From: a virus
Lineage: Duplodnaviria > Caudoviricetes
IMG/VR virus record: IMGVR_UViG_3300037463_000009
Span: 1-51,985 of that record
Strand: one strand, 5' to 3'
DNA: 51,985 nucleotides
Every line of letters starts with the position of its first letter. The first letter of the stretch is position 1. The position numbers were made by a program, and so were the translations under genes. Of this stretch, positions 1 to 51,985 are shown piece after piece. The notes under the pieces are model-generated. The model saw only the letters and a program-made list of their open reading frames with translations. It was not told where the DNA came from and did no database searches.

Positions 1-127
1 TAAATGCTTACGATCCTCCGTATATCACGAAAGAAACGCAGATCGCACGATCGATCCGGGAGACAGAAGCGGGGAAAGCTGCCTGGATCGAGTGGAAAAA
101 ACAACGCTCAGCCGATGCTGAGCGAAA
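1..127. repeat. Terminal direct repeat, copy 1 (127 bp; probable circular assembly overlap)
   Basis: 1-127 is identical to 51859-51985; 127 is a common assembler k-mer. Confidence 0.95.
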
Positions 128-1238: not shown

Positions 1239-2025
1239 CGCGTCCCACCTTGCGCCCCTGTGCCCGCTGTGCAGCCAGCCGAAGCAGCGGATCGTGAGCA
1301 GCGACGGTCGGCGTGCCCTCTGGTCGTGTCCCTGCCAGGATGCGCAGATCGCGGCGGAAGATCAGGCACGCATTGCGCAGGATGCCGCGTACCGCCAGGC
1401 ACAGGCCGAGCGGGTGCTGGGCGATACCGGCCTGCGCTTGATCGAGGACCTGACCTGGGAAACGTTGGACGTGACCAAAAATCAGATCGCCCGCCCGCTG
1501 GAGCAGATTCAGCGCTGGTTTGCCCAGGCGCTGGCCTACGGATCGCAGGCCAGCTACCGCGACCCGGAGAGTCCACCTGCGGCGATCTGGGTGTACTCCG
1601 ATGGGAAAGGTCGGGGCAAGACTCATCTCGCAGCCGGCGCGTTCCATGCGGCACGGCAGGCGCAGAAGCTGGCCTGTTTTATCGAGGAAAACAGCTATCT
1701 CCGGCGGCGCTGGGGCTGTGACTTCGAGGAGGTCGAGCAGGTGGTGAATCTTCCCGCCGATCGGGCGTGGCTGACGGTGATCGACGATCTGGGGCGGCGG
1801 CAGGGCATGAAGAACATGCAGGCGGTTGCCAATGTCTGGTTTGAGGTGTTCAACCAGCGCTGGCTGAAGCGCGGCTGGACGGTGGTGACGAGCAACTACA
1901 CCCCTGAGCAGCTGTTTGATCTGGGCACGCTCGACGACGCGACCTATAGCCGCGTTCGGCAGATGACCAGGGGGTATCTGGTGCGGTGTACGGGCGACGA
2001 TTACCGGCTGGAGGTATCACCATGA
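1057..2025 (+). CDS. DnaC/IstB-like helicase loader ATPase
   Basis: CPLC...CPC Zn motif, Walker A GKGRGKT, Walker B VIDDLG, VVTSN, YSR; AAGGAGG SD. Confidence 0.85.
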   Translation: MSTSSSGLQPIGDLISDLATRANRGQMSGLAAISTELSPSNPPSASSPGHMSDPVVTLTSSASHLAPLCPLCSQPKQRIVSSDGRRALWSCPCQDAQIAAEDQARIAQDAAYRQAQAERVLGDTGLRLIEDLTWETLDVTKNQIARPLEQIQRWFAQALAYGSQASYRDPESPPAAIWVYSDGKGRGKTHLAAGAFHAARQAQKLACFIEENSYLRRRWGCDFEEVEQVVNLPADRAWLTVIDDLGRRQGMKNMQAVANVWFEVFNQRWLKRGWTVVTSNYTPEQLFDLGTLDDATYSRVRQMTRGYLVRCTGDDYRLEVSP

Positions 2026-2558: not shown

Positions 2559-3055
2559 GCCTGACCACGATCGCGCAGCAGATGCGCGCCAAAGCCGAGG
2601 TCGAGGGCACGGCATACCGAGGCCTGCGCAATGGACTTTGTTTGCTGCTCAGCCACCAGGGCGGCGAGTGGACGCTGGCGCTGTGGCGCGTTGATACGCT
2701 GCCATCGGACAACGAGGTCGCGGTTATTCGTCGCGATTTTGACATTCCAGCACACGCCACAGAGAGCGCCCCTGACCAGATTGCCTGGCTCGATGAGCGC
2801 CGTCGCGGCGTAGATGCGCCGATCGTGCTGACGTGGACCGAGCGGCTAGGCCGCGCAACACCGCCGTCGCCACACCAACGGGCGCATCTCGGCAGCTTGA
2901 TTGCCCGTGGCGATCTCGATGGGGCGCGCACCTACGCCACGAACCAGACCGCCCAGGGCGGTACGAATTGGACGCTCTGTCCAGAGTGGCAGCGTTGGGC
3001 GGCGCTTCTCAGCGACGAGCCGCAACTCAGCGTCGTGCAAGCAGCATTGTTGTAA
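2555..3055 (+). CDS. Hypothetical protein
   Basis: ATGA overlap with the upstream gene; in operon. Confidence 0.65.
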   Translation: MSLTTIAQQMRAKAEVEGTAYRGLRNGLCLLLSHQGGEWTLALWRVDTLPSDNEVAVIRRDFDIPAHATESAPDQIAWLDERRRGVDAPIVLTWTERLGRATPPSPHQRAHLGSLIARGDLDGARTYATNQTAQGGTNWTLCPEWQRWAALLSDEPQLSVVQAALL

Positions 3056-3069
3056 TTTTGGAGGACCAT

Positions 3070-5055
3070 ATGACCCAAATGCAAACGCTCCAACTGCCCG
3101 ACGGCTGGGAACTGAAAAGCGGACGTGCGGGCTACCTGGCTCGTCGCATCGCCGACGGCGCGCATACGATCGCTTTTCCGGCCAAGGCCGACGCGATCCA
3201 GGCCGCGCATAACCTGGAGGCAGCCGCAGCAGACCCGAAGGTCGCTGGCATGAGCCAGACAACGGCGAAGATGGCCGCGACGAACAGCATGCCACCGAGT
3301 AGCAGCCCGGTCCTGCCCGATGAACTGCGCCTGGCCGGATGGACGATCGAGAAGGCAGGTCGTGAGCATCGCGATGACTCGACGGTGGAGGCCTGGAAAA
3401 TTGAGAATCGTTCGCTCGGTATTCCCTGGACGGTCCTCTATGCCGGAGTTGATACGGCGATCGAAACTGCACGCAAGCAGCAGGCTGAGAAGATCGGCTA
3501 CATGCGCCCGCTGGAGATGGACGCAAAGCAGACTGTACGCATCGATGAGATCGTGCCCAGCCGCTGGCAGCCGCGCCGCACCTTCGACGAGTCGAGCCTG
3601 GCGGAACTGGCCGAGTCGATCCGTGAGCATGGCATCCTGAATCCGCTCCAAGTGATCTACAACGAGCGCTGTGAGTATGAGCTGATCGCCGGTGAGCGGC
3701 GGCTGCGCGCGGCCACCATGCTTGGCCTTGAAACTGTGCCGGTCGAAGTGAAAGAGTACACGCCGCGCCAGTGCCAGGAGATCGCGATCATTGACAATTT
3801 GCAGAGAGAGCAGTTGTCGGACATCGACGAGGGCTATGCCTATGAGCGCTTGATCGTCGAGCTGGGCATCAGCGAAAACGAGCTGGCGAAGCGCCTGGGT
3901 AAAAATAGGTCGTACATTCAGCAGCGCCGGGCACTCGCCAGGTCCGCGCCGGAGGTGCAGCAGGCGCTGGCCGAGGGCAAGCTCACGCTCAGCCAGGCGC
4001 GGGCGATTGCACAGGCTGCGCCGGGCGACCACAAGAGCCAGCAGAAAGCGCTGAAGGAGATCCAGCAAAAAATCGGGTACGGTCAGACGATCACCGAAGC
4101 GCGAGCGCGCGAGATGACCGAGGCCGAGGTGCGCAAGCGCGTCAAAAAGGATCTTGAAGCGCTCGGCTGGAAGGTCGAGGGCCAGCTCGTTTGGTCTGCC
4201 GGGGAGCGGCCACAAACTTGGACCGGCGGCGAGATGTTGGCGGCTGTCCAGGAGCAGCGACGGCCCGCTGGTCAGGCAGTCCAGGCAGTCCAGTTAACCA
4301 GCGAACAGCGGACGGCCATCAAGCTACGCTACAACATCGTCAGCGGGAATGACTACGATCCCTGGATCAAAATCAATGAAGAATGGACGACTCAGAGCGT
4401 GTGCTATCTCGCACCGGCGGAACTGGTCGAGCTAGCCGCTGAGATGGAGCAGGCCTGGACAGCGCTGCAAGCGCGGTATCAGGCGGCAGGTTGGACGGTC
4501 GAGCACCAGAACAATGATTACTTTGTTGCCGTCTCTCCGAAGGGTCGCCGGGAGTCCTGCCATAGCTGGGCGAAGGCGGTCGCGACTATCGAGGAGATCG
4601 AGGCGGGGAAACTTTCGCCGGAAAAGCCGAAGGAACCGGAGTACAAGCCCTCGAAGCAAAAGTGCTGCCGGTGCAACAAGATGGTCAGCCAGTGGCGCTA
4701 CCGCAGTTCTGGCACCTACTGCCTGCCGTGTAACGATGCACGCGAGGCCGAGATTGCTGCCGAGCGCGCAGCGGTGCGTGAGCGGGTTGTGCAGCTCGTC
4801 GGGACGAGTCTCGACGCCGTGCCGGTTGATGTGCTGCGGCTCCTGACGTTCATCGCCGGTCCGAACTATCTGGATCGACTCATCGGTACGGGCTACATCG
4901 AGCCAGAGGAGAAGGGGCGGCGCTTCCAGGCGGCAGACGAGGCGCTGCTGCGCGAGACGCTGATCGACGCGATGGCCGCAAAGGTGTATCGCTCGGAGGT
5001 GGTCGTTGTGCCGCAGCTCGTCGAGGCTGAGCAGCCCCAGGAGTCAACAGCGTGA
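3070..5055 (+). CDS. parB: ParB/Spo0J family protein with long N- and C-terminal extensions
   Basis: QPRRTF, LAESIREHGILNPL, IAGERRLRA, IIDNLQREQL, HTH ELAKRLGKNRSYI; C-terminal CxxC...CxxC. Confidence 0.9.
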   Translation: MTQMQTLQLPDGWELKSGRAGYLARRIADGAHTIAFPAKADAIQAAHNLEAAAADPKVAGMSQTTAKMAATNSMPPSSSPVLPDELRLAGWTIEKAGREHRDDSTVEAWKIENRSLGIPWTVLYAGVDTAIETARKQQAEKIGYMRPLEMDAKQTVRIDEIVPSRWQPRRTFDESSLAELAESIREHGILNPLQVIYNERCEYELIAGERRLRAATMLGLETVPVEVKEYTPRQCQEIAIIDNLQREQLSDIDEGYAYERLIVELGISENELAKRLGKNRSYIQQRRALARSAPEVQQALAEGKLTLSQARAIAQAAPGDHKSQQKALKEIQQKIGYGQTITEARAREMTEAEVRKRVKKDLEALGWKVEGQLVWSAGERPQTWTGGEMLAAVQEQRRPAGQAVQAVQLTSEQRTAIKLRYNIVSGNDYDPWIKINEEWTTQSVCYLAPAELVELAAEMEQAWTALQARYQAAGWTVEHQNNDYFVAVSPKGRRESCHSWAKAVATIEEIEAGKLSPEKPKEPEYKPSKQKCCRCNKMVSQWRYRSSGTYCLPCNDAREAEIAAERAAVRERVVQLVGTSLDAVPVDVLRLLTFIAGPNYLDRLIGTGYIEPEEKGRRFQAADEALLRETLIDAMAAKVYRSEVVVVPQLVEAEQPQESTA

Positions 5056-28924: not shown

Positions 28925-29314
28925 TTATTCCGCACTATTTGGCAGTTTGACCGTGATGTGGAGCTGTCGCGCCGCTGCCTGCAATCGCTCACTCGGAGCG
29001 GGTGGCTCGACCAGATCGTTGATAAACTGCTGGCTTTCGCGTGGCGTCAGCTTCAGTACCTGCTCCGATTCGTCCAGTTCCGCGCAGGCCTGTGCTGCGG
29101 GTAACTGCGCGGATTGAAGCGCGGTGTAGAGCGCACAACCGGCGCGGGTCGTGCTGCTGGCCGTCACATCGACGATCGTCTCGATGCGCTTACCGATCTG
29201 CTCAACCGTCTCGCCGCGCTCGATGCAGCGCTGGAGATGATTCAGATCCGCGACAACACCGCGCATGACCTGCATGGCCTGGCTGTAGGCTGCCTGGTGT
29301 TCGGGCTGCATCAT
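28925..29314 (-). CDS. Protein with a DUF1778/TacA-antitoxin-like C-terminal segment
   Basis: EQVLKLTPRESQQFINDLVEPPAPSERLQAAARQL; GGAGG SD. Confidence 0.6.
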   Translation of the reverse strand: MMQPEHQAAYSQAMQVMRGVVADLNHLQRCIERGETVEQIGKRIETIVDVTASSTTRAGCALYTALQSAQLPAAQACAELDESEQVLKLTPRESQQFINDLVEPPAPSERLQAAARQLHITVKLPNSAE

Positions 29315-29691: not shown

Positions 29692-30741
29692 TTAGGCAAC
29701 CTCTAGACAATGCGGTGAGAACCAGACAACCTCACGGCTGCTATTTGCTACCGCTTGCTTGGTTCGGGCATAGCCGCCCTGGGCCTTCCAGTTGAGACAG
29801 ATCCAGCCTTCCGGCATGGTGTAGTCACCCTCATAGCCACACAGGGCAATCCGAAAGAGTGGGTTATTGCCATGCTCAACTGCCCAAGTATGGACAGTGT
29901 GGGCTACGCGATTCGCTTCGCTGTACCAATCTTCATATTGGATATAGGGTGGATCAAGAAATACCGCCGTCGGCCCGTGATAGGTTGTCACTGTCGGCGT
30001 AAGAACACGACTCCAGTCGCCACTACACACCCGTACCCGACGCAACCGAGCAGCAAGTGCTGCGAAGTAGTCGAGGAGTGCTGACGTTGTACCCAGGACT
30101 TCGCGGTGGACACCGCGAAGTCCTGCCACATGCGGCAGTTGACGTACAACCCGTGCGAGGGAATCGCGGTGTCCACCGCGATTCCCTCCAGCGATGTGGG
30201 GCAGCTTGCGGTTGACACCCTGTGCTCCGCTCATGCGGGGCAGTTGCCTCGCAACTGCCCCGGCACGACCTACTCGCCGGAGTTCACGATCAACAACCTG
30301 CCAGGGACCACGGCCCGAGCACCAACCGCTCCCAATCCAACTACTGACACCCCAAACCCACCAACCGGCGATTTTTGGATCGTAATAGTCGGGATCGCCT
30401 TCGAGTCGTGCTGTCAGTGATTCACGTTGACCAACCAGCCAGGCATGGCGAGCATGGAGATCGTTTTCATTCACCGGCCAGTCAGCATAGCGTGCAACCG
30501 TTTCCGGCTCAGCCTGGAGCGCCCGCCAGAAGTTGCTAATCATGCCATCTTTGTCGTTGACGGTTTCGGTTTGCGGCGTATGTGGTCGAGCCAGAAGTGC
30601 GGCCAGTGAGCCAGCGAATGGCTCGACGTAATTCGGTGGATTCCCGAATCGCTTCCATACCTCGGCAGCAATACGAGATTTCCCGCCGAAGTAGGGAAAG
30701 GGAGCCTTAAGACTCTGAGATGGTTGTGGTACAGAAAGCAT
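29692..30741 (-). CDS. D12-class N6-adenine DNA methyltransferase
   Basis: FPYFGGKS, YVEPFAGS, VND, FLDPPY. Confidence 0.9.
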   Translation of the reverse strand: MLSVPQPSQSLKAPFPYFGGKSRIAAEVWKRFGNPPNYVEPFAGSLAALLARPHTPQTETVNDKDGMISNFWRALQAEPETVARYADWPVNENDLHARHAWLVGQRESLTARLEGDPDYYDPKIAGWWVWGVSSWIGSGWCSGRGPWQVVDRELRRVGRAGAVARQLPRMSGAQGVNRKLPHIAGGNRGGHRDSLARVVRQLPHVAGLRGVHREVLGTTSALLDYFAALAARLRRVRVCSGDWSRVLTPTVTTYHGPTAVFLDPPYIQYEDWYSEANRVAHTVHTWAVEHGNNPLFRIALCGYEGDYTMPEGWICLNWKAQGGYARTKQAVANSSREVVWFSPHCLEVA

Positions 30742-31445
30742 TAGACCGTCTCTGCCAGGTTGGCCCACATGTAGCCGCGTGCCAGTTTGATCCAGCGGTT
30801 GCTGCCGCCATGCAGCTCGCCAGTGACCGCCGTACCGCGTATCAGCGCACCCGCGTTTTTCTGCTCCAGCACCGCGCTGGCGGTTGATGCCTCGGCGCGC
30901 ACACGTGAGCCGTCGGCGCGTACGCGGTAGAGCGTCGTCGCCAGTCGCCATCTCAGCTCGTGCCGAACAGCGTCCAGATCAATCGCATGGCCTGGGCAAT
31001 GTTTCGTCGTCTGGGGATCGTTCCGGTGGCCGTTGAGCTTTGAAGCTAACAAACCACGTCGGCGCAGCAGCAGCTCCAGTACGTCGTAGGTATAGGAGCG
31101 AATCGGCTCCAGCCAGCCATGCGCGTCGTAGTTGCCGACGACTTCAACCCCGACATGTGTCGCGTTGAATGAAACCGCATGAATGCCACGCTGGGTTAGC
31201 GGTGTGCCGGTCCAGATCCCGTCGGGGCCGACAAAGATATGTGGGCCAGCGCTCCATTTATTGGTCACGCGGTAGTGGCGTCCGATGGCAACCATGCTCT
31301 GCTCACCACGCCACTGGGCAACCGTCGGGATTGCCGTGTGATGCACGGTCACGCCGGTGTACCAGGTGATCGGACCGAGTTGATCCATGTGAGCAGCCAG
31401 CGCTGCGGCGTCAGTAAAGTGATGAATGTCCCAGGCGAATGACAT
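30741..31445 (-). CDS. Endolysin: N-acetylmuramoyl-L-alanine amidase with an SH3-like C-terminal domain
   Basis: VHHTA, GPH, GVEVVG, GH...KHCPG Zn-amidase motifs. Confidence 0.9.
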   Translation of the reverse strand: MSFAWDIHHFTDAAALAAHMDQLGPITWYTGVTVHHTAIPTVAQWRGEQSMVAIGRHYRVTNKWSAGPHIFVGPDGIWTGTPLTQRGIHAVSFNATHVGVEVVGNYDAHGWLEPIRSYTYDVLELLLRRRGLLASKLNGHRNDPQTTKHCPGHAIDLDAVRHELRWRLATTLYRVRADGSRVRAEASTASAVLEQKNAGALIRGTAVTGELHGGSNRWIKLARGYMWANLAETV

Positions 31446-31458
31446 GTAAAAAAACCTT

Positions 31459-31554
31459 TGGAGCGGGGCCTGAGAACGAACTCAGAGACTCGGTGCGTCC
31501 GTTTCGCTTCGCTTCGAGGCGTCGGGCCGGTGCAGCGCCGTGGCTGCGCCCCGC
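31459..31554 (-). ncRNA. tRNA-like RNA with a Gly-type acceptor stem and encoded CCA
   Basis: GCGGGGC...GCCCCGC-T-CCA acceptor; CTGAG-TTCGTT-CTCAG T-arm; GCAGC-CACGGC-GCTGC D-like arm; no canonical anticodon arm. Confidence 0.55.
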
Positions 31555-31565
31555 ATGATGACAAC

Positions 31566-31670
31566 TTACCTACGCCGCCGCGATCGCGTCGTCCGAATGG
31601 TGTGCCGGACGTGCAAGCCGATCGGACAGGTGAACAAGCAAATGATCAGGACTGCCAGCGCTATCTCCAT
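31566..31670 (-). CDS. 34-aa single-TM peptide with a basic tail
   Basis: MEIALAVLIICLFTCPIGLHVRHTIRTTRSRRRR*; TGATG overlap. Confidence 0.55.
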   Translation of the reverse strand: MEIALAVLIICLFTCPIGLHVRHTIRTTRSRRRR

Positions 31671-31849
31671 CACCAGCGCTCGATTCGGTTCGGCACGGCG
31701 TTGGCCCATGGATCGGGCGTTGCCTCGATGCGCTCCAGCACCTGCTGGCGATACTCCAGCGCGTCGGCGAGCTGGTTGCTCCAGACCACCAGCCAGGAGA
31801 TGAGCCAGGCGACAATGCGCAGGAGGTCAACAAGGGCCCTAGTGAGCAT
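31670..31849 (-). CDS. 59-aa membrane protein in the lysis cassette
   Basis: MLTRALVDLLRIVAWLISWLVVW...; coupled to both neighbours. Confidence 0.6.
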   Translation of the reverse strand: MLTRALVDLLRIVAWLISWLVVWSNQLADALEYRQQVLERIEATPDPWANAVPNRIERW

Positions 31850-32132
31850 GTTCAGCTTCTACCAGCTCGTCGACTTTTTTCTCGACCCGGCCTAGCCGTT
31901 CGCCGAATCCCTCCAGCGCCTTCGTGATGAGCTTGAGCTGCTCGATCTGCTGATCGAGGTACATCTTCAGCACTGGGCGCAGCAGGTACGCCGCGAAAAT
32001 CAACGCACCGGCGAGCGGCGATTCAGCCAACATCTTGACGGCGATGCTTCCTATGACATCCTCGCTGACTGCAACATCAGGGGCAAAACCCCGCGCCAGA
32101 AGGATGATGGAAAGAACAATAAGAACCTTCAT
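31839..32132 (-). CDS. Holin-like membrane protein
   Basis: Two hydrophobic segments plus a coiled-coil C-terminus, upstream of the endolysin. Confidence 0.6.
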   Translation of the reverse strand: MKVLIVLSIILLARGFAPDVAVSEDVIGSIAVKMLAESPLAGALIFAAYLLRPVLKMYLDQQIEQLKLITKALEGFGERLGRVEKKVDELVEAEHAH

Positions 32133-33661
32133 GGAGTTTTGACCTCGATATAACCGCGCCGGTTGATCTGGTCGACCCGGACGCGCCCGCCCTCGAAGTT
32201 CCTCGCCCAGCCACCTGCTACCGCGTAGCGGCTGCTCAGCGGTTCGCCGAGGCGTGCTTGATAGTTGTCGTAACGCCACAGCTCACCATATGCGCGGCCA
32301 TCGGCGTATCTGAATGTAACCTGATCGGTGTTGCCAGCAGGGACAATGAGCAGCCAGTTCGCCAGCGCAAACTGCTGAGTCTGCGTGTCGGCCTGGACGC
32401 CCTGCGTCGTGGCCTGTAGCCCGTAGCCCCGGCTGATCAGCCACTCGGCCTGGCTGAGATCGCCGTTCTGTCGCTGCACATTCCACGGCGCGTTGTATTG
32501 CGTCCAGCCGGTCCACATCTGCTCGAAGTGCGCGCCACTCAGGCCGCCGCGCTCGAAGTAGATATTGACATCGCTGCCGGTGCTCTTGCCTTCGATCAGG
32601 TTCCCCCAGATCGGCAGCTCGGGACCAACAGCGGCGCGGAGTCCCTTGACCAGATCCACGGCGCAAGCGACATACTTGTCGCTGGTAAGCTGCTGCTTCG
32701 AGCCGGTATAGAGCGTGCTCGTGCCAGCTTTGCGCGTTTCTAGGTCCCAGGAGAGCGGCGTATTGTCGAGGAAGATTCCGTCGGGGAACATGCCGCGCGC
32801 AAACACCTTGGCCTCGTTCACACCCGTCTGTGGATTGTCGGCCTGCGGCTGCTGCATCTGCTGGATGCGTGCGTAGAACCAGGCGCGATAGCCGGTCGAG
32901 CAGGGGTCCATGGCGTACATGCCGCTGCTGCTGCCGTGGCTGATGCGCGAGAAGCTGCCGTCGGCATTCTTTTTGAGCAAGAACCAGGTCGGCTGATTGT
33001 TCAGGTAGGACCAATCGCCCGCGCGGTAGGCTGGATTGTTGGGCCATGGCGCATAGGGGACGCCTGCGGGGTTCTGGACCTCCAGCGGCAGAATATACGT
33101 GTAGTGCTTGCCCGTGTAGCCCGCTGTTTTCAGTGCTTCTCGGAATGCAAAGCGATCTGCACCAAAGTTCCCGGCGTGCCAGGACAAGGCCGATCCGATG
33201 CTGGCCGTTGTGCCGTTCTTGGGGAGATCCAGGAATGCGCCGAGCGTGACAGGGGTGCTGAGCTGCTGCTCCGGCACGGCGGTCGGCTGGATCGTCGCGG
33301 TAGGGGTGGGGGGAACCGTCGCCGTCGGCGTGGCGCTGGGGATGGCCGTGGGGATGCCGGTCGGCGACGGTGAAGGGGTGAGGGTAGGGGCGACGGTCGC
33401 GGTAGGGGATGGCAGAGCGGTGGCCGTCGGGGGGACGGCAGTGGGAGTCGGGTCGAAGGAACAGGCGAGAATACCACGATTGGCCGCGCTCGGCAGGATC
33501 GCTGCCTGCTGGCCTGCGCACACGTACGCAACCTGCTCACCCTGGGACAGCTCGATCACGGCGGGGGTGGCCTGGACGCGGGCTTGGGCGACCAGGCTGA
33601 TGGCCGGGCCAAACAGCAGGGTCAGGAGACAGGCGAGATACAGAAAGCGCGTGCGGGTCAT
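32129..33661 (-). CDS. Secreted putative glycoside hydrolase (GHL15-like TIM barrel) with a Pro/Thr linker
   Basis: Signal peptide, PT repeats, DGIFLDN, C-terminal LGEP...WARNFEGGRVRVD. Confidence 0.65.
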   Translation of the reverse strand: MTRTRFLYLACLLTLLFGPAISLVAQARVQATPAVIELSQGEQVAYVCAGQQAAILPSAANRGILACSFDPTPTAVPPTATALPSPTATVAPTLTPSPSPTGIPTAIPSATPTATVPPTPTATIQPTAVPEQQLSTPVTLGAFLDLPKNGTTASIGSALSWHAGNFGADRFAFREALKTAGYTGKHYTYILPLEVQNPAGVPYAPWPNNPAYRAGDWSYLNNQPTWFLLKKNADGSFSRISHGSSSGMYAMDPCSTGYRAWFYARIQQMQQPQADNPQTGVNEAKVFARGMFPDGIFLDNTPLSWDLETRKAGTSTLYTGSKQQLTSDKYVACAVDLVKGLRAAVGPELPIWGNLIEGKSTGSDVNIYFERGGLSGAHFEQMWTGWTQYNAPWNVQRQNGDLSQAEWLISRGYGLQATTQGVQADTQTQQFALANWLLIVPAGNTDQVTFRYADGRAYGELWRYDNYQARLGEPLSSRYAVAGGWARNFEGGRVRVDQINRRGYIEVKTP

Positions 33662-33669
33662 AAATCCTC

Positions 33670-33742
33670 AAAACAAAAAGCGCGCAACATCTCCGAAGAG
33701 AGGTCACGCGCTCAAAGCATCTGCTGAGCAGCGGGGTAGGTT
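33670..33742 (-). promoter_or_regulatory. Late-leader attenuator motif, copy 2 (with intrinsic terminator)
   Basis: AACCTACCCCGCTGCTCAGCAG..TGAGCGCGTGACC, cUUCGg-capped stem, T-tract. Confidence 0.7.
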
Positions 33743-33961
33743 GTCAACGACTAGGCGGTTATCACAGCCTGGCGCTCGATCCAGATCCGGCGATCGTGTT
33801 GCCGGTCAGGATTGCCAGCACGTTTACTCCGTCGCGTGCGTCGCCGTTTCGCTGTTGGTTCGCGCTGTGTGTCAGCCTGGACACACGCGCGATCAGCACA
33901 CGGACGTGGTGAGCTGGTTACAGAGGTAGAAGGCGACAACACAGACATACTCCATGAACAC

Positions 33962-34036
33962 AAAAAAACACGTGACCGAAGGGGGCTTCGGTGGTCACGC
34001 GCTCAAGCAAAAGCCGCTAAGCAGCGGAGGTAAGTT
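33962..34036 (-). promoter_or_regulatory. Late-leader attenuator motif, copy 1 (with intrinsic terminator)
   Basis: AACTTACCTCCGCTGCTTAGCGG..TGAGCGCGTGACC, stem, T7. Confidence 0.7.
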
Positions 34037-34042
34037 AAAGAC

Positions 34043-34052
34043 ATCTTACCAC
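34043..34052 (-). promoter_or_regulatory. Putative late promoter (extended -10 TGgTAAGAT)
   Basis: Lies 6 nt upstream of motif copy 1; no consensus -35. Confidence 0.45.
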
Positions 34053-34259
34053 ATGCTCATCTGAGCACGCATGTGCGTTTCATATGAATATGCACAGCAT
34101 TTGGTACTGGCATACTCAGGGACTTTCGAGGGGGTTGTTTTTGGCGACGTGTAGTACTTAAGTCGCACAGGCGTTTCGCTGGAACTGTCTATTTGTGCTA
34201 CAGACAACACGTCTAAATATCATTAAACTAGACCTATATTCCCACCGAGCGAGACGACC

Positions 34260-34514
34260 ATGATGATGATCACATTCTGCGCCGCCTGCCCTCCTGCGGT
34301 TACACCGCCAAGAACCATCACCCGAACCGACGCCACCGCCCTAGCCGTCAACGCGACGCTGACTCATTACCCCTTTCTGCTTGACATGATCAAGCCGGCC
34401 ACTAGCATCAGACGACGCGGCCACGGCTGGATTGTGACCGTCTGGTTCTGCTCGGCAATGTACAAGCGCGTGAAAGTGCATCGGGATGGCCGGACACGGC
34501 TCCTGTCCTCGTAG
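34260..34514 (+). CDS. Hypothetical protein
   Basis: ORF in a small rightward island. Confidence 0.5.
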   Translation: MMMITFCAACPPAVTPPRTITRTDATALAVNATLTHYPFLLDMIKPATSIRRRGHGWIVTVWFCSAMYKRVKVHRDGRTRLLSS

Positions 34515-43117: not shown

Positions 43118-44020
43118 CTACGCTACCAGCAGACGATCTGCACGTCCTGGATACCTCAGCCACATCAGGGCATCTCGCTCGATCTGGCGAGCGCGTTCGC
43201 GGGTAATACCAAACTCTTTGCCCACCTCTTCGAGCGTCCGTGGCCCGCCGCCATCGAGTCCGAACCGTAATTCAAGAACCCGGCGCTCACGATCGCCCAA
43301 CTCGGCCAGCAGTACGCGAAGCTGCTCAGCCTGGAGCTGCTGCTCGACGGCAAGCTCAGTCACTTCAGGTCCGGGGATGTAGTCAGCCAGCGACCGCTCG
43401 TCGCCGTCCTTGCTGGATATGATCGGCGCGTCCAGCGATACCATCGGCTTCAGCGCGCTGAGCAGCGCCTGCGTCTTCTTTGGCGTCAGATCTAGCACCG
43501 CAGCCAGCTCATCGATGGTTGGCTCACGTTGCAGCGCATCGACAAGCCGATCGCGGACCTGGCGCATGCGGCTGAGCGACTCGCCGATGTGGACCGGCAA
43601 GCGTACCAGGCGACTCTGATCGGCCAGTGCGCGGGTGACCGCCTGACGAATCCACCAGGTTGCGTACGTCGAAAACTTAAACCCTTTGCGGTAGTCGAAC
43701 TTCTCGACGGCGCGCATCAGCCCGATGTTGCCTTCTTGGATCAGGTCTTCGAGCGGCATGTCATGGCCTCGGTACTTTTTGGCAATCGACATGACCAGGC
43801 GCAGGTTATGGCAGATCAACTCCTCGCGCGCCGCCTGATCACCTGCCTCCATACGCTGACAGAGCGCAACCTCCTCGGCAGCACTGAGCAGCTCATGCCG
43901 AATATCGCGCACATACTGCGCCAGGCCGTTGATCAACTCGGCCCGCTCTTCCCCGTCGTCGAAGAGATCGAACGGATCGACCTCCAGCTCAGGCGACGGG
44001 GCTAGGAAGGGTCCGAACAT
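43118..44020 (-). CDS. RpoD/sigma70-family RNA polymerase sigma factor
   Basis: NLRLVMSIAKKY, DLIQEGNIGLMRAVEKFD, KFSTYATWWIRQA, RTLEEVGKEFGITRERARQIE. Confidence 0.97.
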   Translation of the reverse strand: MFGPFLAPSPELEVDPFDLFDDGEERAELINGLAQYVRDIRHELLSAAEEVALCQRMEAGDQAAREELICHNLRLVMSIAKKYRGHDMPLEDLIQEGNIGLMRAVEKFDYRKGFKFSTYATWWIRQAVTRALADQSRLVRLPVHIGESLSRMRQVRDRLVDALQREPTIDELAAVLDLTPKKTQALLSALKPMVSLDAPIISSKDGDERSLADYIPGPEVTELAVEQQLQAEQLRVLLAELGDRERRVLELRFGLDGGGPRTLEEVGKEFGITRERARQIERDALMWLRYPGRADRLLVA

Positions 44021-44436
44021 GGCTCCTCCTGCGCGGCCTGGGGTTGCTCCTGGGTAGCAGGCTCCTGCGGCTTGTTTGGGCAACTGTAATAGTGCTTGTT
44101 GCCCTTCTTTGGTACGAGCAGCTTCCCGCAGCCGTATCGGCACGGCTTGCGCTGCTCGGCCTCCTGATGGCCGTTCGCGCCGGTGAGCTGCGGCGGTTCG
44201 ATGGTCGTAATCTCGATCGCTGGCATCGGCAGTTGCTGTGACGGCAACGCACCGGCGTGGTACGCCGAGCGCAGCGCCTCTTCCAGCGGGACACATGCGC
44301 CGAGCGGTACACGCTCGATCGTGGCCTGATTCGGATTGGCGTGCGTGACGACGAGCAGCGCCACCTGGCCGTGGTCAGATACCAGGTGCGCGCCAGCCGG
44401 GACGGTCAATGCTGCGTATAAAGCTGAGAGATCCAT
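44002..44436 (-). CDS. Hypothetical protein with a C-terminal Zn-finger
   Basis: CRYGCG...H...C. Confidence 0.65.
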   Translation of the reverse strand: MDLSALYAALTVPAGAHLVSDHGQVALLVVTHANPNQATIERVPLGACVPLEEALRSAYHAGALPSQQLPMPAIEITTIEPPQLTGANGHQEAEQRKPCRYGCGKLLVPKKGNKHYYSCPNKPQEPATQEQPQAAQEEPCSDPS

Positions 44437-50832: not shown

Positions 50833-50983
50833 ATGGCTACGTTAGACAATGACATGCGCGTGCTCGGCTATATCGTTCAATACCGAGCCGAACATGACGG
50901 ACACTCACCCTCGATCCGGGAGATCGCGCAGGAGACGGGGATTAAGCGATCAACGGTGCAAAACGCCGTAGGTCGACTATTAA
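50833..50983 (+). pseudogene. 5' half of the LexA-like wHTH (cro-position) gene, fused in frame to IS5 orfA
   Basis: YIVQYRAEHDGHSPSIREIAQETGIKRSTV, LexA N-domain pattern. Confidence 0.85.
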
Positions 50984-51858
50984 GTAACTATCTCAAAACG
51001 TGGTACGCTACCGGCATGAATAATCAACCCAACCCATTACCGACGATCTGGCGGATACCCGATGACCTGTGGGTCATGATCCAGCCGATCCTTGCGGAGC
51101 TTGACCCGCCCAAAAAGACGGGCCGCAAACGGATTGACAGTCAGGCGGCGCTCGATGCAATGATTTTCCGTCTGCGCTCGGGCTGCCAGTGGAACCAATT
51201 GCCGAAGGAGTTCCCGGATGATAGCTCGGTCCATCGCACGTTCCAGCGCTGGGTCGAACGCGGTGTCTTTGACCGCATCTGGGCCGTGCTCGTCGAAGCG
51301 TGCAACGAGCTTGGTGGTGTAGACTGGAGGTGGCAGGCGGCGGATGGCGCGCTGAGCAAAGCGCGTTTTGGGGGGATCAGATCGGCAGAAACCCGACGGA
51401 TCGCGGCAAACATGGAACCAAGCGCAGCCTGTTGACCGAAGCGACGGGCGGACCGCTGGCCGTGACGATTGCCGGCGCGAATCGGCACGATACGAAGCTG
51501 CTGCAAGCGACCTTGGATGCGATCATTGTGGCGCGCCCGCAACCAACGCCAGCCGCACCGCAGCATTTGTGCTTGGACAAAGGCTATGATAATCCAACAG
51601 GTCATACGACTGTTGCCGCAACTGGCTATGTGGCGCACATCCGCCGTATCGGTGAAGAAAAGGTGGATGCGACCGGCGCAAAGAGCTATCCGGCGCGGCG
51701 CTGGGTGGTCGAGCGCACCCATGCCTGGTTGAGCAAATGCCGCGCGATTTTGGTCCGCTACGACAAGCACAGCCACAACTACCTGGGCTTGCTCAAGTTG
51801 GCGTGTGTGCTCATCTGGTATCGGCGACATCATCAACTCACTGTTTTGAGATAGTTAC
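50984..51858 (+). mobile_element. IS5-family insertion sequence (875 bp, two-ORF type)
   Basis: Perfect 16-bp TIR GTAACTATCTCAAAAC; TAA target duplication at 50981-50983 and 51859-51861. Confidence 0.95.
51016..51854 (+). CDS. IS5 transposase (orfA/orfB joined by a -1 frameshift at TTTTGGGGGG, 51366-51375)
   Basis: LRSGCQWNQLP, RTFQRW; GRNPTDRGKHGTK, DKGYD, RWVVER. Confidence 0.9.
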
Positions 51859-51985
51859 TAAATGCTTACGATCCTCCGTATATCACGAAAGAAACGCAGA
51901 TCGCACGATCGATCCGGGAGACAGAAGCGGGGAAAGCTGCCTGGATCGAGTGGAAAAAACAACGCTCAGCCGATGCTGAGCGAAA
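51859..51985. repeat. Terminal direct repeat, copy 2
   Basis: Identical to 1-127. Confidence 0.95.

What the first reader, a model, noticed from the sequence alone, without database searches (positions are those of the whole stretch)
31459..31554. tRNA(Gly)-like RNA without an anticodon arm, embedded in the lysis cassette
Seen: a 96-nt minus-strand element with a perfect 7-bp acceptor stem, T discriminator, encoded CCA, a 5-bp T-arm (loop TTCGTT, one nt short) and a D-like hairpin. The anticodon arm is replaced by an irregular ~40-nt insert, and the element ends 14 nt before the endolysin start. Established: G1-C72, C2-G71, G3-C70 and U73 are bacterial tRNA-Gly acceptor identity elements. Inference: a tRNA mimic acting as a decoy for tRNA-targeting toxins/nucleases, or an RNase P/RNase Z processing site that tunes endolysin expression.
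Basis: partly seen in the sequence, partly recalled or inferred. Interest (0 to 1): 0.72.

Follow-up and report, generated by a model that had tools for sequence, protein, structure and literature searches.

The report
Anticodon-less glycine-tRNA mimic in phage
A soil phage carries, just before its cell-wall-breaking enzyme gene, a 96-base non-coding element shaped like the charging end of a glycine tRNA but without an anticodon; a second, otherwise diverged phage keeps it almost unchanged, so it is likely a working RNA, most likely a decoy for host toxins that attack glycine tRNA, though neither its expression nor its job has been tested.

Summary
In detail: a 7-bp acceptor stem with tRNA-Gly identity bases, U73, encoded CCA, a 5-bp T-arm with a 6-nt loop, a D-like hairpin and a weakly folded 46-nt middle. 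A strict scan finds only this site in the genome and none in 150 simulated genomes. One homolog was found, in a second phage: 88 of 91 bases identical, while four-fold sites in flanking genes are 43% identical. Conservation starts at G1, ends just past CCA, and survives replacement of the endolysin by an unrelated amidase. A 5-nt indel excludes coding. It is not a tRNA, Y RNA, tmRNA or C4 RNA by the tests run. It resembles, in build but not sequence, the unexplained stable RNAs of T5 and T4; the scan noted RNAs of that kind on other DNA before. More distant Chloroflexota prophages lack it, so it is accessory. Best reading (0.38): cut out of the late transcript and acting as a decoy for toxins that read the tRNA-Gly acceptor end. 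Main rival (0.28): a processing site that tunes endolysin. With two copies there is no covariation within the family, and no expression data.

The parts
31459..31554 (-). Whole tRNA-like element, 96 nt (91 nt in homolog L001:1435-1525)
31548..31554 (-). Acceptor stem, 5' strand (G1 C2 G3 G4 G5 G6 C7); preceded by A(-2) U(-1), predicted RNase P site
   Evidence: sequence; pair probability 0.99-1.0; RNase P preferences from PMC10731613 passages
31532..31547 (-). D-like hairpin, 5 bp, 6-nt loop containing GG; no U8 connector; one substitution in the loop in the homolog
31486..31531 (-). 46-nt middle replacing anticodon arm and variable loop; several near-equal weak folds; holds the 5-nt indel and 2 of the 3 substitutions
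31470..31485 (-). T-arm, 5 bp, 6-nt loop TTCGTT lacking A58
31459..31469 (-). Acceptor stem 3' strand, discriminator U73 and encoded CCA
31446..31458 (-). 13-nt spacer with AAGG (likely ribosome-binding site of the endolysin) and a U-run; AAGG-TTTT also in the homolog (11-nt spacer)
   Evidence: role inferred
30741..31445 (-). Endolysin, Amidase_2 (replaced by an unrelated Amidase_3 in the second phage)
31566..32132 (-). Three small upstream ORFs; the 97-aa one (31839-32132) is a holin-like membrane protein by inference and is shared with the second phage (56 of 95 aa); the two nearest the element are not shared

Best explanation
The element is a non-coding, anticodon-less copy of the tRNA-Gly top half that is conserved in two phages, is predicted to be cut out of the late transcript by host RNase P and 3' nucleases, and most likely acts as a decoy for host toxins that recognise the tRNA-Gly acceptor end. 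Shown: the structure-forming sequence, its conservation with exact ends, its non-coding nature, and its place near the head of the same-strand run of lysis, packaging and virion genes. Inferred: derivation from a tRNA-Gly(UCC); transcription late in infection; release as a CCA-ended RNA; exclusion from decoding; competition with host tRNA-Gly for acceptor-end enzymes such as toxSAS pyrophosphokinases (no charging needed) or, if it can be glycylated, GNAT acetyltransferases.
For: Conservation: 88 of 91 aligned bases identical against 114 of 267 four-fold sites in five shared genes; 8 of 30 in the 5' flank; the longest near-identical stretch between the 11.9-kb contig and the window. The neighbours on both sides differ. 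The four best global matches among the tRNAs ARAGORN called in 60 loci from the likely host order (43 from genome G227) are all tRNA-Gly; against the best one, 8 of 12 acceptor and T pairs are identical, 4 differ on both sides, none is broken. It carries all four FaRel2 determinants (G1-C72, C2-G71, G4-C69, G5-C68), and a tRNA-Gly minihelix is a FaRel2 substrate (PMC11559606 section 10); it carries U73 and G71, the TacT determinants (PMC9976931 passage); 8 of 14 GNAT toxins tested acetylated only Gly-tRNA-Gly (PMC9177977 passage). It is accessory: six distant prophages in the likely host order show no such element in the stretches fetched (gene layout read for four). TacA-type antitoxins occur in that order (9 of 167 genomes, 6 with full-length matches; one inspected lies next to a GNAT gene), and this phage carries a TacA-like C-terminal insert 2.4 kb downstream.
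Against: No expression, processing or binding data. Only two copies are known, with no compensatory change between them. The toxin determinants follow from tRNA-Gly ancestry and are not independent evidence. A pure acceptor-end decoy does not explain why the weakly folded middle is as conserved as the ends (39 of 41). GNAT toxins need a charged substrate and C35/C36 are not in place; a U73 irregular tRNA was not charged by E. coli GlyRS (PMC5389517 section 16). Known phage escape from tRNA-targeting defence uses resistant working tRNAs, not decoys (PMC11559606 passage). The TacA-like insert is absent from the second phage's homologous protein. The loss of A58 and U8 would disturb the elbow that RNase P reads. 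I did not look for toxSAS genes in the host order.
Confidence: 0.38

Rival explanations
1. Cis-acting processing site: RNase P and a 3' nuclease cut the late mRNA at the element, separating the membrane-protein genes from the endolysin and trimming the endolysin's ribosome-binding site, which would lower or delay endolysin output while the stable fold keeps the site free before cutting.
For: In both phages CCA sits 11-13 nt before an amidase start with AAGG in between, although the amidases are unrelated. The 12-bp acceptor/T stack, CCA and U(-1) fit RNase P preferences, and RNase P cuts mRNAs and phage RNAs with non-standard T-loops (PMC10731613 passages). No promoter-like site was found in 30600-34300, so it is likely co-transcribed.
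Against: RNase P needs shape, not sequence, yet stems and middle are unchanged in sequence. Distant prophages run holin-like and endolysin genes overlapping with no element. The homolog has C(-1), and U73 is not the preferred purine of RCCA.
Confidence: 0.28
2. A recently exchanged or slowly decaying relic of a phage tRNA-Gly (or an attachment-site remnant) with no present function; high identity reflects recent recombination between mosaic phages.
For: The two phages are mosaic (different amidase, large terminase and portal). The element aligns colinearly with tRNA-Gly(UCC), with a shrunken 3-bp/5-nt hairpin where the anticodon arm was. Only two copies exist in all searches.
Against: Identity starts exactly at G1 and ends a few bases past CCA. 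All 17 pairs of the three stems are Watson-Crick although the sequence is far from any tRNA found. All 3 substitutions and the indel fall in predicted unpaired places, a weak sign with so few changes. No exact match to a host tRNA 3' end was found; the integrase is 3.9 kb away.
Confidence: 0.14
3. A scaffold RNA that uses the tRNA shape for maturation and stability and presents the conserved middle to a specific protein, as Y RNAs do for Ro60; or a non-ribosomal glycine carrier for a phage or host transferase.
For: The middle is conserved in sequence. In genome G227 two RNAs of the same build (intact acceptor, D and T arms, anticodon arm replaced) lie directly before a Ro60 gene. Phage Mu Mom uses Gly-tRNA-Gly as a donor (PMC13219725 passages). 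An alternative hairpin next to the T-arm has a 7-nt loop with ACC in the anticodon position.
Against: No Ro60, RtcB, synthetase, CCA enzyme or Mom-like Pfam match among 116 ORFs scanned (many ORFs have no match at all). No GNCGAAN0-1G motif. The ACC hairpin has probability 0.12-0.24 and two of the three substitutions fall in its loop, removing U33 in this copy.
Confidence: 0.2

Closest known systems
Phage T5 RNA1 and RNA2 ('tRNA-like stable RNA with unknown functions', AY543070) and T4 RNA C (rnaC, species 1 RNA, NC_000866)
   Same: Phage non-coding RNAs that keep an acceptor-like end helix and T-arm (T5 RNA1/RNA2 also a D-like arm) with the anticodon arm replaced by irregular sequence; function unknown (PMC9697503, PMC12685909 passages); T4 RNA C is a late RNA.
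   Different: No sequence similarity (local score p 0.20-0.88 for 9 stable RNAs). Those lie in tRNA clusters of large lytic phages; this one stands alone in a 52-kb integrase-bearing phage with no tRNA genes, has a full tRNA-Gly acceptor, a 6-nt T-loop, and is shorter (91-96 nt).
Bacterial tRNA-Gly (RF00005), including phage tRNA-Gly with long variable arms (L002, L014, L060, L101)
   Same: G1-C72, C2-G71, G3-C70, U73, CCA; colinear alignment; best matches among host-order tRNAs.
   Different: No anticodon arm, no C35/C36 in place, no U8, no A58; not called by ARAGORN or Rfam.
Bacterial Y RNAs (YrlA, RF02553; PMC4201824)
   Same: tRNA mimics without a decoding arm, found in bacteria and phages; one is cut by RNase P and gets CCA.
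   Different: YrlA is permuted with a closed acceptor-like hairpin, has a GNCGAAN0-1G motif and lies within 4 kb of Ro60; none of these holds here.
Irregular tRNAs and allo-tRNAs of soil bacteria (Mukai et al., PMC5389517)
   Same: Odd cloverleaves, some with U73, some not used in translation, often near toxin-antitoxin genes (section 16).
   Different: Those have 8/4 or 9/3 acceptor/T stems and an anticodon arm; this is 7/5 without one. I saw only four rows of their supplementary table.
RNase P-processed phage RNAs C4 and M3; tmRNA
   Same: Phage or bacterial non-tRNA substrates with a CCA end (PMC10731613 passages).
   Different: No Rfam match; no complementary targets above chance; no G3-U70 pair and no tag frame.

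Membership tests
canonical tRNA-Gly | 7-bp acceptor with G1-C72, C2-G71, U73 and CCA | tested here: met
   identity set from PMC9976931
canonical tRNA-Gly | 5-bp anticodon stem with 7-nt loop, U33, C35, C36 | tested here: not met
   no such arm after the D hairpin; ACC hairpin misplaced, probability 0.12-0.24, U33 not conserved
canonical tRNA-Gly | 7-nt T-loop with A58; U8 connector; detection by tRNA models | tested here: not met
   6-nt loop, no A58, no U8; ARAGORN 0; Rfam 0
canonical tRNA-Gly | charged by GlyRS | not testable with these tools
   needs an assay
T4/T5 tRNA-like stable RNAs | tRNA top half kept, anticodon arm replaced | tested here: met
   folds compared
T4/T5 tRNA-like stable RNAs | sequence homology to rnaC, rnaD or T5 RNA1/2/3/I/III/IV/2H | tested here: not met
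   0 of 9 above shuffles
T4/T5 tRNA-like stable RNAs | located in a tRNA gene cluster | tested here: not met
   no tRNA gene in the complete genome
T4/T5 tRNA-like stable RNAs | accumulates as a stable discrete RNA | not testable with these tools
   no RNA data could be laid
Y RNA (YrlA) | Ro60/TROVE gene within 4 kb | tested here: not met
   no TROVE match in 116 ORFs
Y RNA (YrlA) | GNCGAAN0-1G motif and permuted topology | tested here: not met
   motif absent, nearest is C-T-CGAAG; open acceptor end; no RF02553 match
tmRNA | G3-U70 alanine identity and tag reading frame | tested here: not met
   G3-C70, U73; ARAGORN 0
C4/CI antisense RNAs | loops complementary to phage target sites; Rfam C4 match | tested here: not met
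   60 matches of 9+ nt vs 61 +/- 13 in 60 shuffles, longest 11; Rfam none
tRNA-type attP | exact copy of a host tRNA 3' end beside the integrase | tested here: inconclusive
   no match in genomes searched and 3.9 kb from the integrase, but the true host may not be held
allo-tRNA / E-loop tRNA | 8/4 or 9/3 acceptor/T-stem with anticodon arm | tested here: not met
   7/5 and no anticodon arm

The most novel reading that the evidence does not exclude
A phage RNA sponge: a purpose-built, ribosome-inert tRNA-Gly acceptor end made with the virion genes that soaks up tRNA-Gly-specific defence toxins, paired in this phage with a stolen GNAT-antitoxin peptide. It would be an RNA counter-defence that absorbs rather than replaces, and would give a testable function for the long-unexplained T4/T5 tRNA-like RNAs.
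Probability: 0.25. Interest if true: 0.8.

Novelty: new variant of a known kind. Interest (0 to 1): 0.47.

Why it matters
Anticodon-less tRNA-like RNAs have been annotated in T4 and T5 for decades without a function, buried in clusters of real tRNAs. This one stands alone, has a clean tRNA-Gly acceptor end and is under visible constraint, so it is a small, cheap test case: tRNA-Gly is the preferred target of several acceptor-end toxins, and a 96-base RNA can be assayed directly against them and against RNase P. If it is a decoy it adds an RNA sponge to phage counter-defence; if it is a processing site it shows tRNA punctuation of a phage lysis mRNA. The limits are a two-member family, an uncultured phage and no expression data.

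Tried and rejected
Homolog searches that found nothing beyond the one contig: endolysin in viral contigs (0 of 4 candidates); exact 20-mer (1 stretch, the homolog); ends pattern (120 loci from 21 of 64 parts, 67 pass a stem filter, only the homolog contig aligns); 16-mer (70 loci); T-loop pattern in viral, metagenome and genome contigs (2, 111 and 63 stretches; 177 matches screened, the rest chance, coding or tRNA-Gly with a T-loop deletion); D-hairpin pattern (120 loci from 44 of 64 parts); holin-like alignment (1 locus; two weak hits in 1 of 167 genomes, not followed); GenBank phages and plasmids (short chance hits); covariance model R1 in 150 Chloroflexota genomes (0) and 5 close ones (two hits at E 2.6 and 6.2, not inspected); pattern in 151 genomes of the likely host order (17 matches in 14 genomes, none resembling the element). 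Three holin-like relatives on contigs of 1.3-29 kb could not be fetched. Sequencing runs: no RNA holder listed; contigs of four DNA runs showed only the probable source, no variants. Kinship with the expanded-anticodon-loop family (L385-L387) looked plausible by eye but is not significant (p 0.16-0.23; best of 43 comparisons p 0.019 uncorrected). The sigma-factor search gave no host signal. Low-score ARAGORN calls in the distant prophages are coding sequence. A complex prediction for the TacA-like insert was not obtained, so its binding is open. Not in print as far as searched: ten full-text searches listed no paper on this element or on a phage tRNA-like decoy for acceptor-end toxins; subscription papers, including the original T4/T5 RNA papers, are outside the library.

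Full report
Observation. These three helices are predicted at 0.94-1.0 alone and in context; the 46-nt middle has several weak folds within 1 kcal/mol. A strict top-half scan finds this one site in the genome and none in 150 simulated genomes. Folding energy alone is not exceptional (z -1.11). ARAGORN and Rfam give nothing. The element departs from tRNA in more than the anticodon arm: no U8 connector and no A58, so a standard elbow is unlikely (established tRNA structure, recalled).

Setting. The window is a complete circular phage of 52 kb held in soil and biocrust runs that may be its source. The element lies in a same-strand run: glycosyl-hydrolase-like gene, three small ORFs, the element, Amidase_2 endolysin, DNA methylase, small ORFs, terminases, head and tail genes. 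No promoter-like site was found in 30600-34300, so co-transcription with the late genes is inferred. The host is likely Chloroflexota: the integrase matches 5 of 301 sampled genomes of that phylum at about 50%, the small terminase 6 of 167 genomes of one order, five of them with the integrase in the same layout, and the one homolog with an organism name is from that phylum. I searched no other phylum, so this is not a comparative assignment.

Conservation. One homolog was found, on an 11.9-kb viral contig (L001, L193). It differs by three substitutions and a 5-nt indel: 88 of 91 bases are identical, against 114 of 267 four-fold sites in five shared genes and 8 of 30 bases in the 5' flank. Identity begins at G1 and ends a few bases past CCA, in an AAGG-TTTT spacer before the amidase start (11 and 13 nt). 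The downstream gene is an unrelated Amidase_3 and the two nearest upstream ORFs differ. The indel excludes a shared reading frame. All changes fall in predicted loops, which is weak evidence with so few events, and there is no compensatory change between the copies.

Origin. Among the tRNAs called in 60 loci from the likely host order the four best global matches are tRNA-Gly; the D region alone is locally closest to a tRNA-Pro. Against the best tRNA-Gly, 8 of the 12 acceptor and T pairs are the same, 4 differ on both sides and none is broken. In the alignment a 3-bp, 5-nt-loop hairpin sits where the anticodon arm was, and this fold is within 0.2 kcal/mol of the best. Descent from a tRNA-Gly(UCC), perhaps a phage form with a long variable arm, is inferred; the middle alone is not significantly like any of 43 tRNA-like sequences after allowing for the number of comparisons.

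What it is not. Not a decoding tRNA: the only 7-nt loop with a Gly triplet lies next to the T-arm, has probability 0.12-0.24, and carries two of the three substitutions. Not a YrlA Y RNA: no Ro60 among 116 ORFs, no GNCGAAN0-1G motif, wrong topology (PMC4201824 passages). Not tmRNA. Not a C4-type antisense RNA: complementary matches are at chance level. An attachment site is unlikely but not excluded. It is also not a core lysis control of this phage group: the stretches fetched from six distant prophages have no such element, and in the four whose genes I read the holin-like and endolysin genes overlap directly.

Mechanism. Step 1, inferred: host RNase P cuts at G1 and 3' nucleases trim to CCA. 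The 12-bp stack, CCA and U(-1) fit its preferences and it accepts substrates without a standard T-loop (PMC10731613 passages). Step 2, inferred: the product is a CCA-ended RNA that cannot decode. Step 3, inferred and least certain: it competes with host tRNA-Gly for toxins that read the acceptor end. FaRel2 selects G1-C72, C2-G71, G4-C69 and Pu5-Py68 and modifies a minihelix (PMC11559606 section 10); TacT reads U73 and G71 (PMC9976931 passage); 8 of 14 GNAT toxins were Gly-specific (PMC9177977 passage). The element has all these bases, but any tRNA-Gly descendant would. Circumstantial support: TacA-type antitoxins occur in 9 of 167 genomes of the likely host order, one inspected beside a GNAT gene, and this phage, though not the second, carries a TacA-like peptide insert. 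Against: GNAT toxins need charging, which lacks C35/C36 here, and a U73 irregular tRNA was not charged by E. coli GlyRS (PMC5389517 section 16); the conserved middle is unexplained. I put this at 0.38, a cis processing role at 0.28, a scaffold or glycine-carrier role at 0.20 and a relic at 0.14. The first two are not exclusive, since excision would also trim the endolysin leader.

Comparison. Earlier notes of this scan (unchecked) pointed me to T4 RNA C and T5 RNA1/RNA2. I confirmed their annotation as stable RNAs of unknown function (PMC9697503 and PMC12685909 passages) and their similar build, and found no sequence similarity. What differs is the solitary position without a tRNA cluster, the place before the endolysin, the full Gly acceptor and the altered T-loop. 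Papers seen: sections of PMC5389517 (with supplement search hits) and PMC11559606; passages of PMC4201824, PMC9976931, PMC9177977, PMC13219725, PMC10731613, PMC9697503, PMC12685909; abstract of PMC13692257 (not used); others as listings only.

Verdict. A real, constrained, non-coding tRNA-Gly mimic; a new variant of a known but unexplained kind of phage RNA; function untested. Interest 0.47.

Noticed in passing
window 28964-29071 (-), residues 82-117 of ORF 28925-29314: A roughly 40-aa insert matching the C-terminal part of TacA/DUF1778 antitoxins (Pfam 24.7 bits, cut-off 21; top solved matches DUF1778 and KacA at E 0.02-0.04; 24 of 46 identical to a host-order TacA). The second phage's homolog lacks it. 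Possibly a captured anti-GNAT-toxin peptide.
   Followed up: partly
L385:960-1056 (+), L386:958-1056 (+), L387:982-1081 (-); also L389, L392, L394, L395, L396: A separate family of phage tRNA-like RNAs: three distinct sequences in 8 of 13 pattern hits, U73 and CCA, normal D and T arms, but the anticodon loop is a 29-31-nt insert with a covarying 5-bp hairpin and fixed flanking motifs. Could be intron-bearing tRNAs or mimics.
   Followed up: partly
L436:1469-1576 and 1730-1861 (-) (G227): Two tRNA-shaped RNAs with open acceptor ends and a long stem in place of the anticodon arm directly upstream of a Ro60/TROVE gene; Rfam calls them tRNA, not YrlA. Likely unpermuted Y RNAs.
   Followed up: partly
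L002, L003, L007, L014, L023, L025, L028, L031, L044, L047, L048, L050, L057, L058, L060, L089, L101, L105, L111, L115: Many phage tRNA-Gly genes carry a long, class II-like variable arm (81-87 nt).
   Followed up: no
L024:1501-1594, L042:1501-1593, L045:1501-1597, L075:1501-1583: Further single phage tRNA-like RNAs with G1C2G3, U73, CCA and enlarged or missing anticodon loops.
   Followed up: no
window 1-127 and 51859-51985; 43118-44296; 2833-5055; 50833-51854: The window is a complete circular phage (terminal repeat) with its own sigma-70 factor, a ParB protein, a tyrosine recombinase and an IS-type transposase.
   Followed up: no
L634-L639: Prophages in six Chloroflexota genomes share this phage's small terminase (38-39%), five also its integrase (about 50%) in the same order; between integrase and lysis genes the four inspected carry different cargo genes.
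   Followed up: partly
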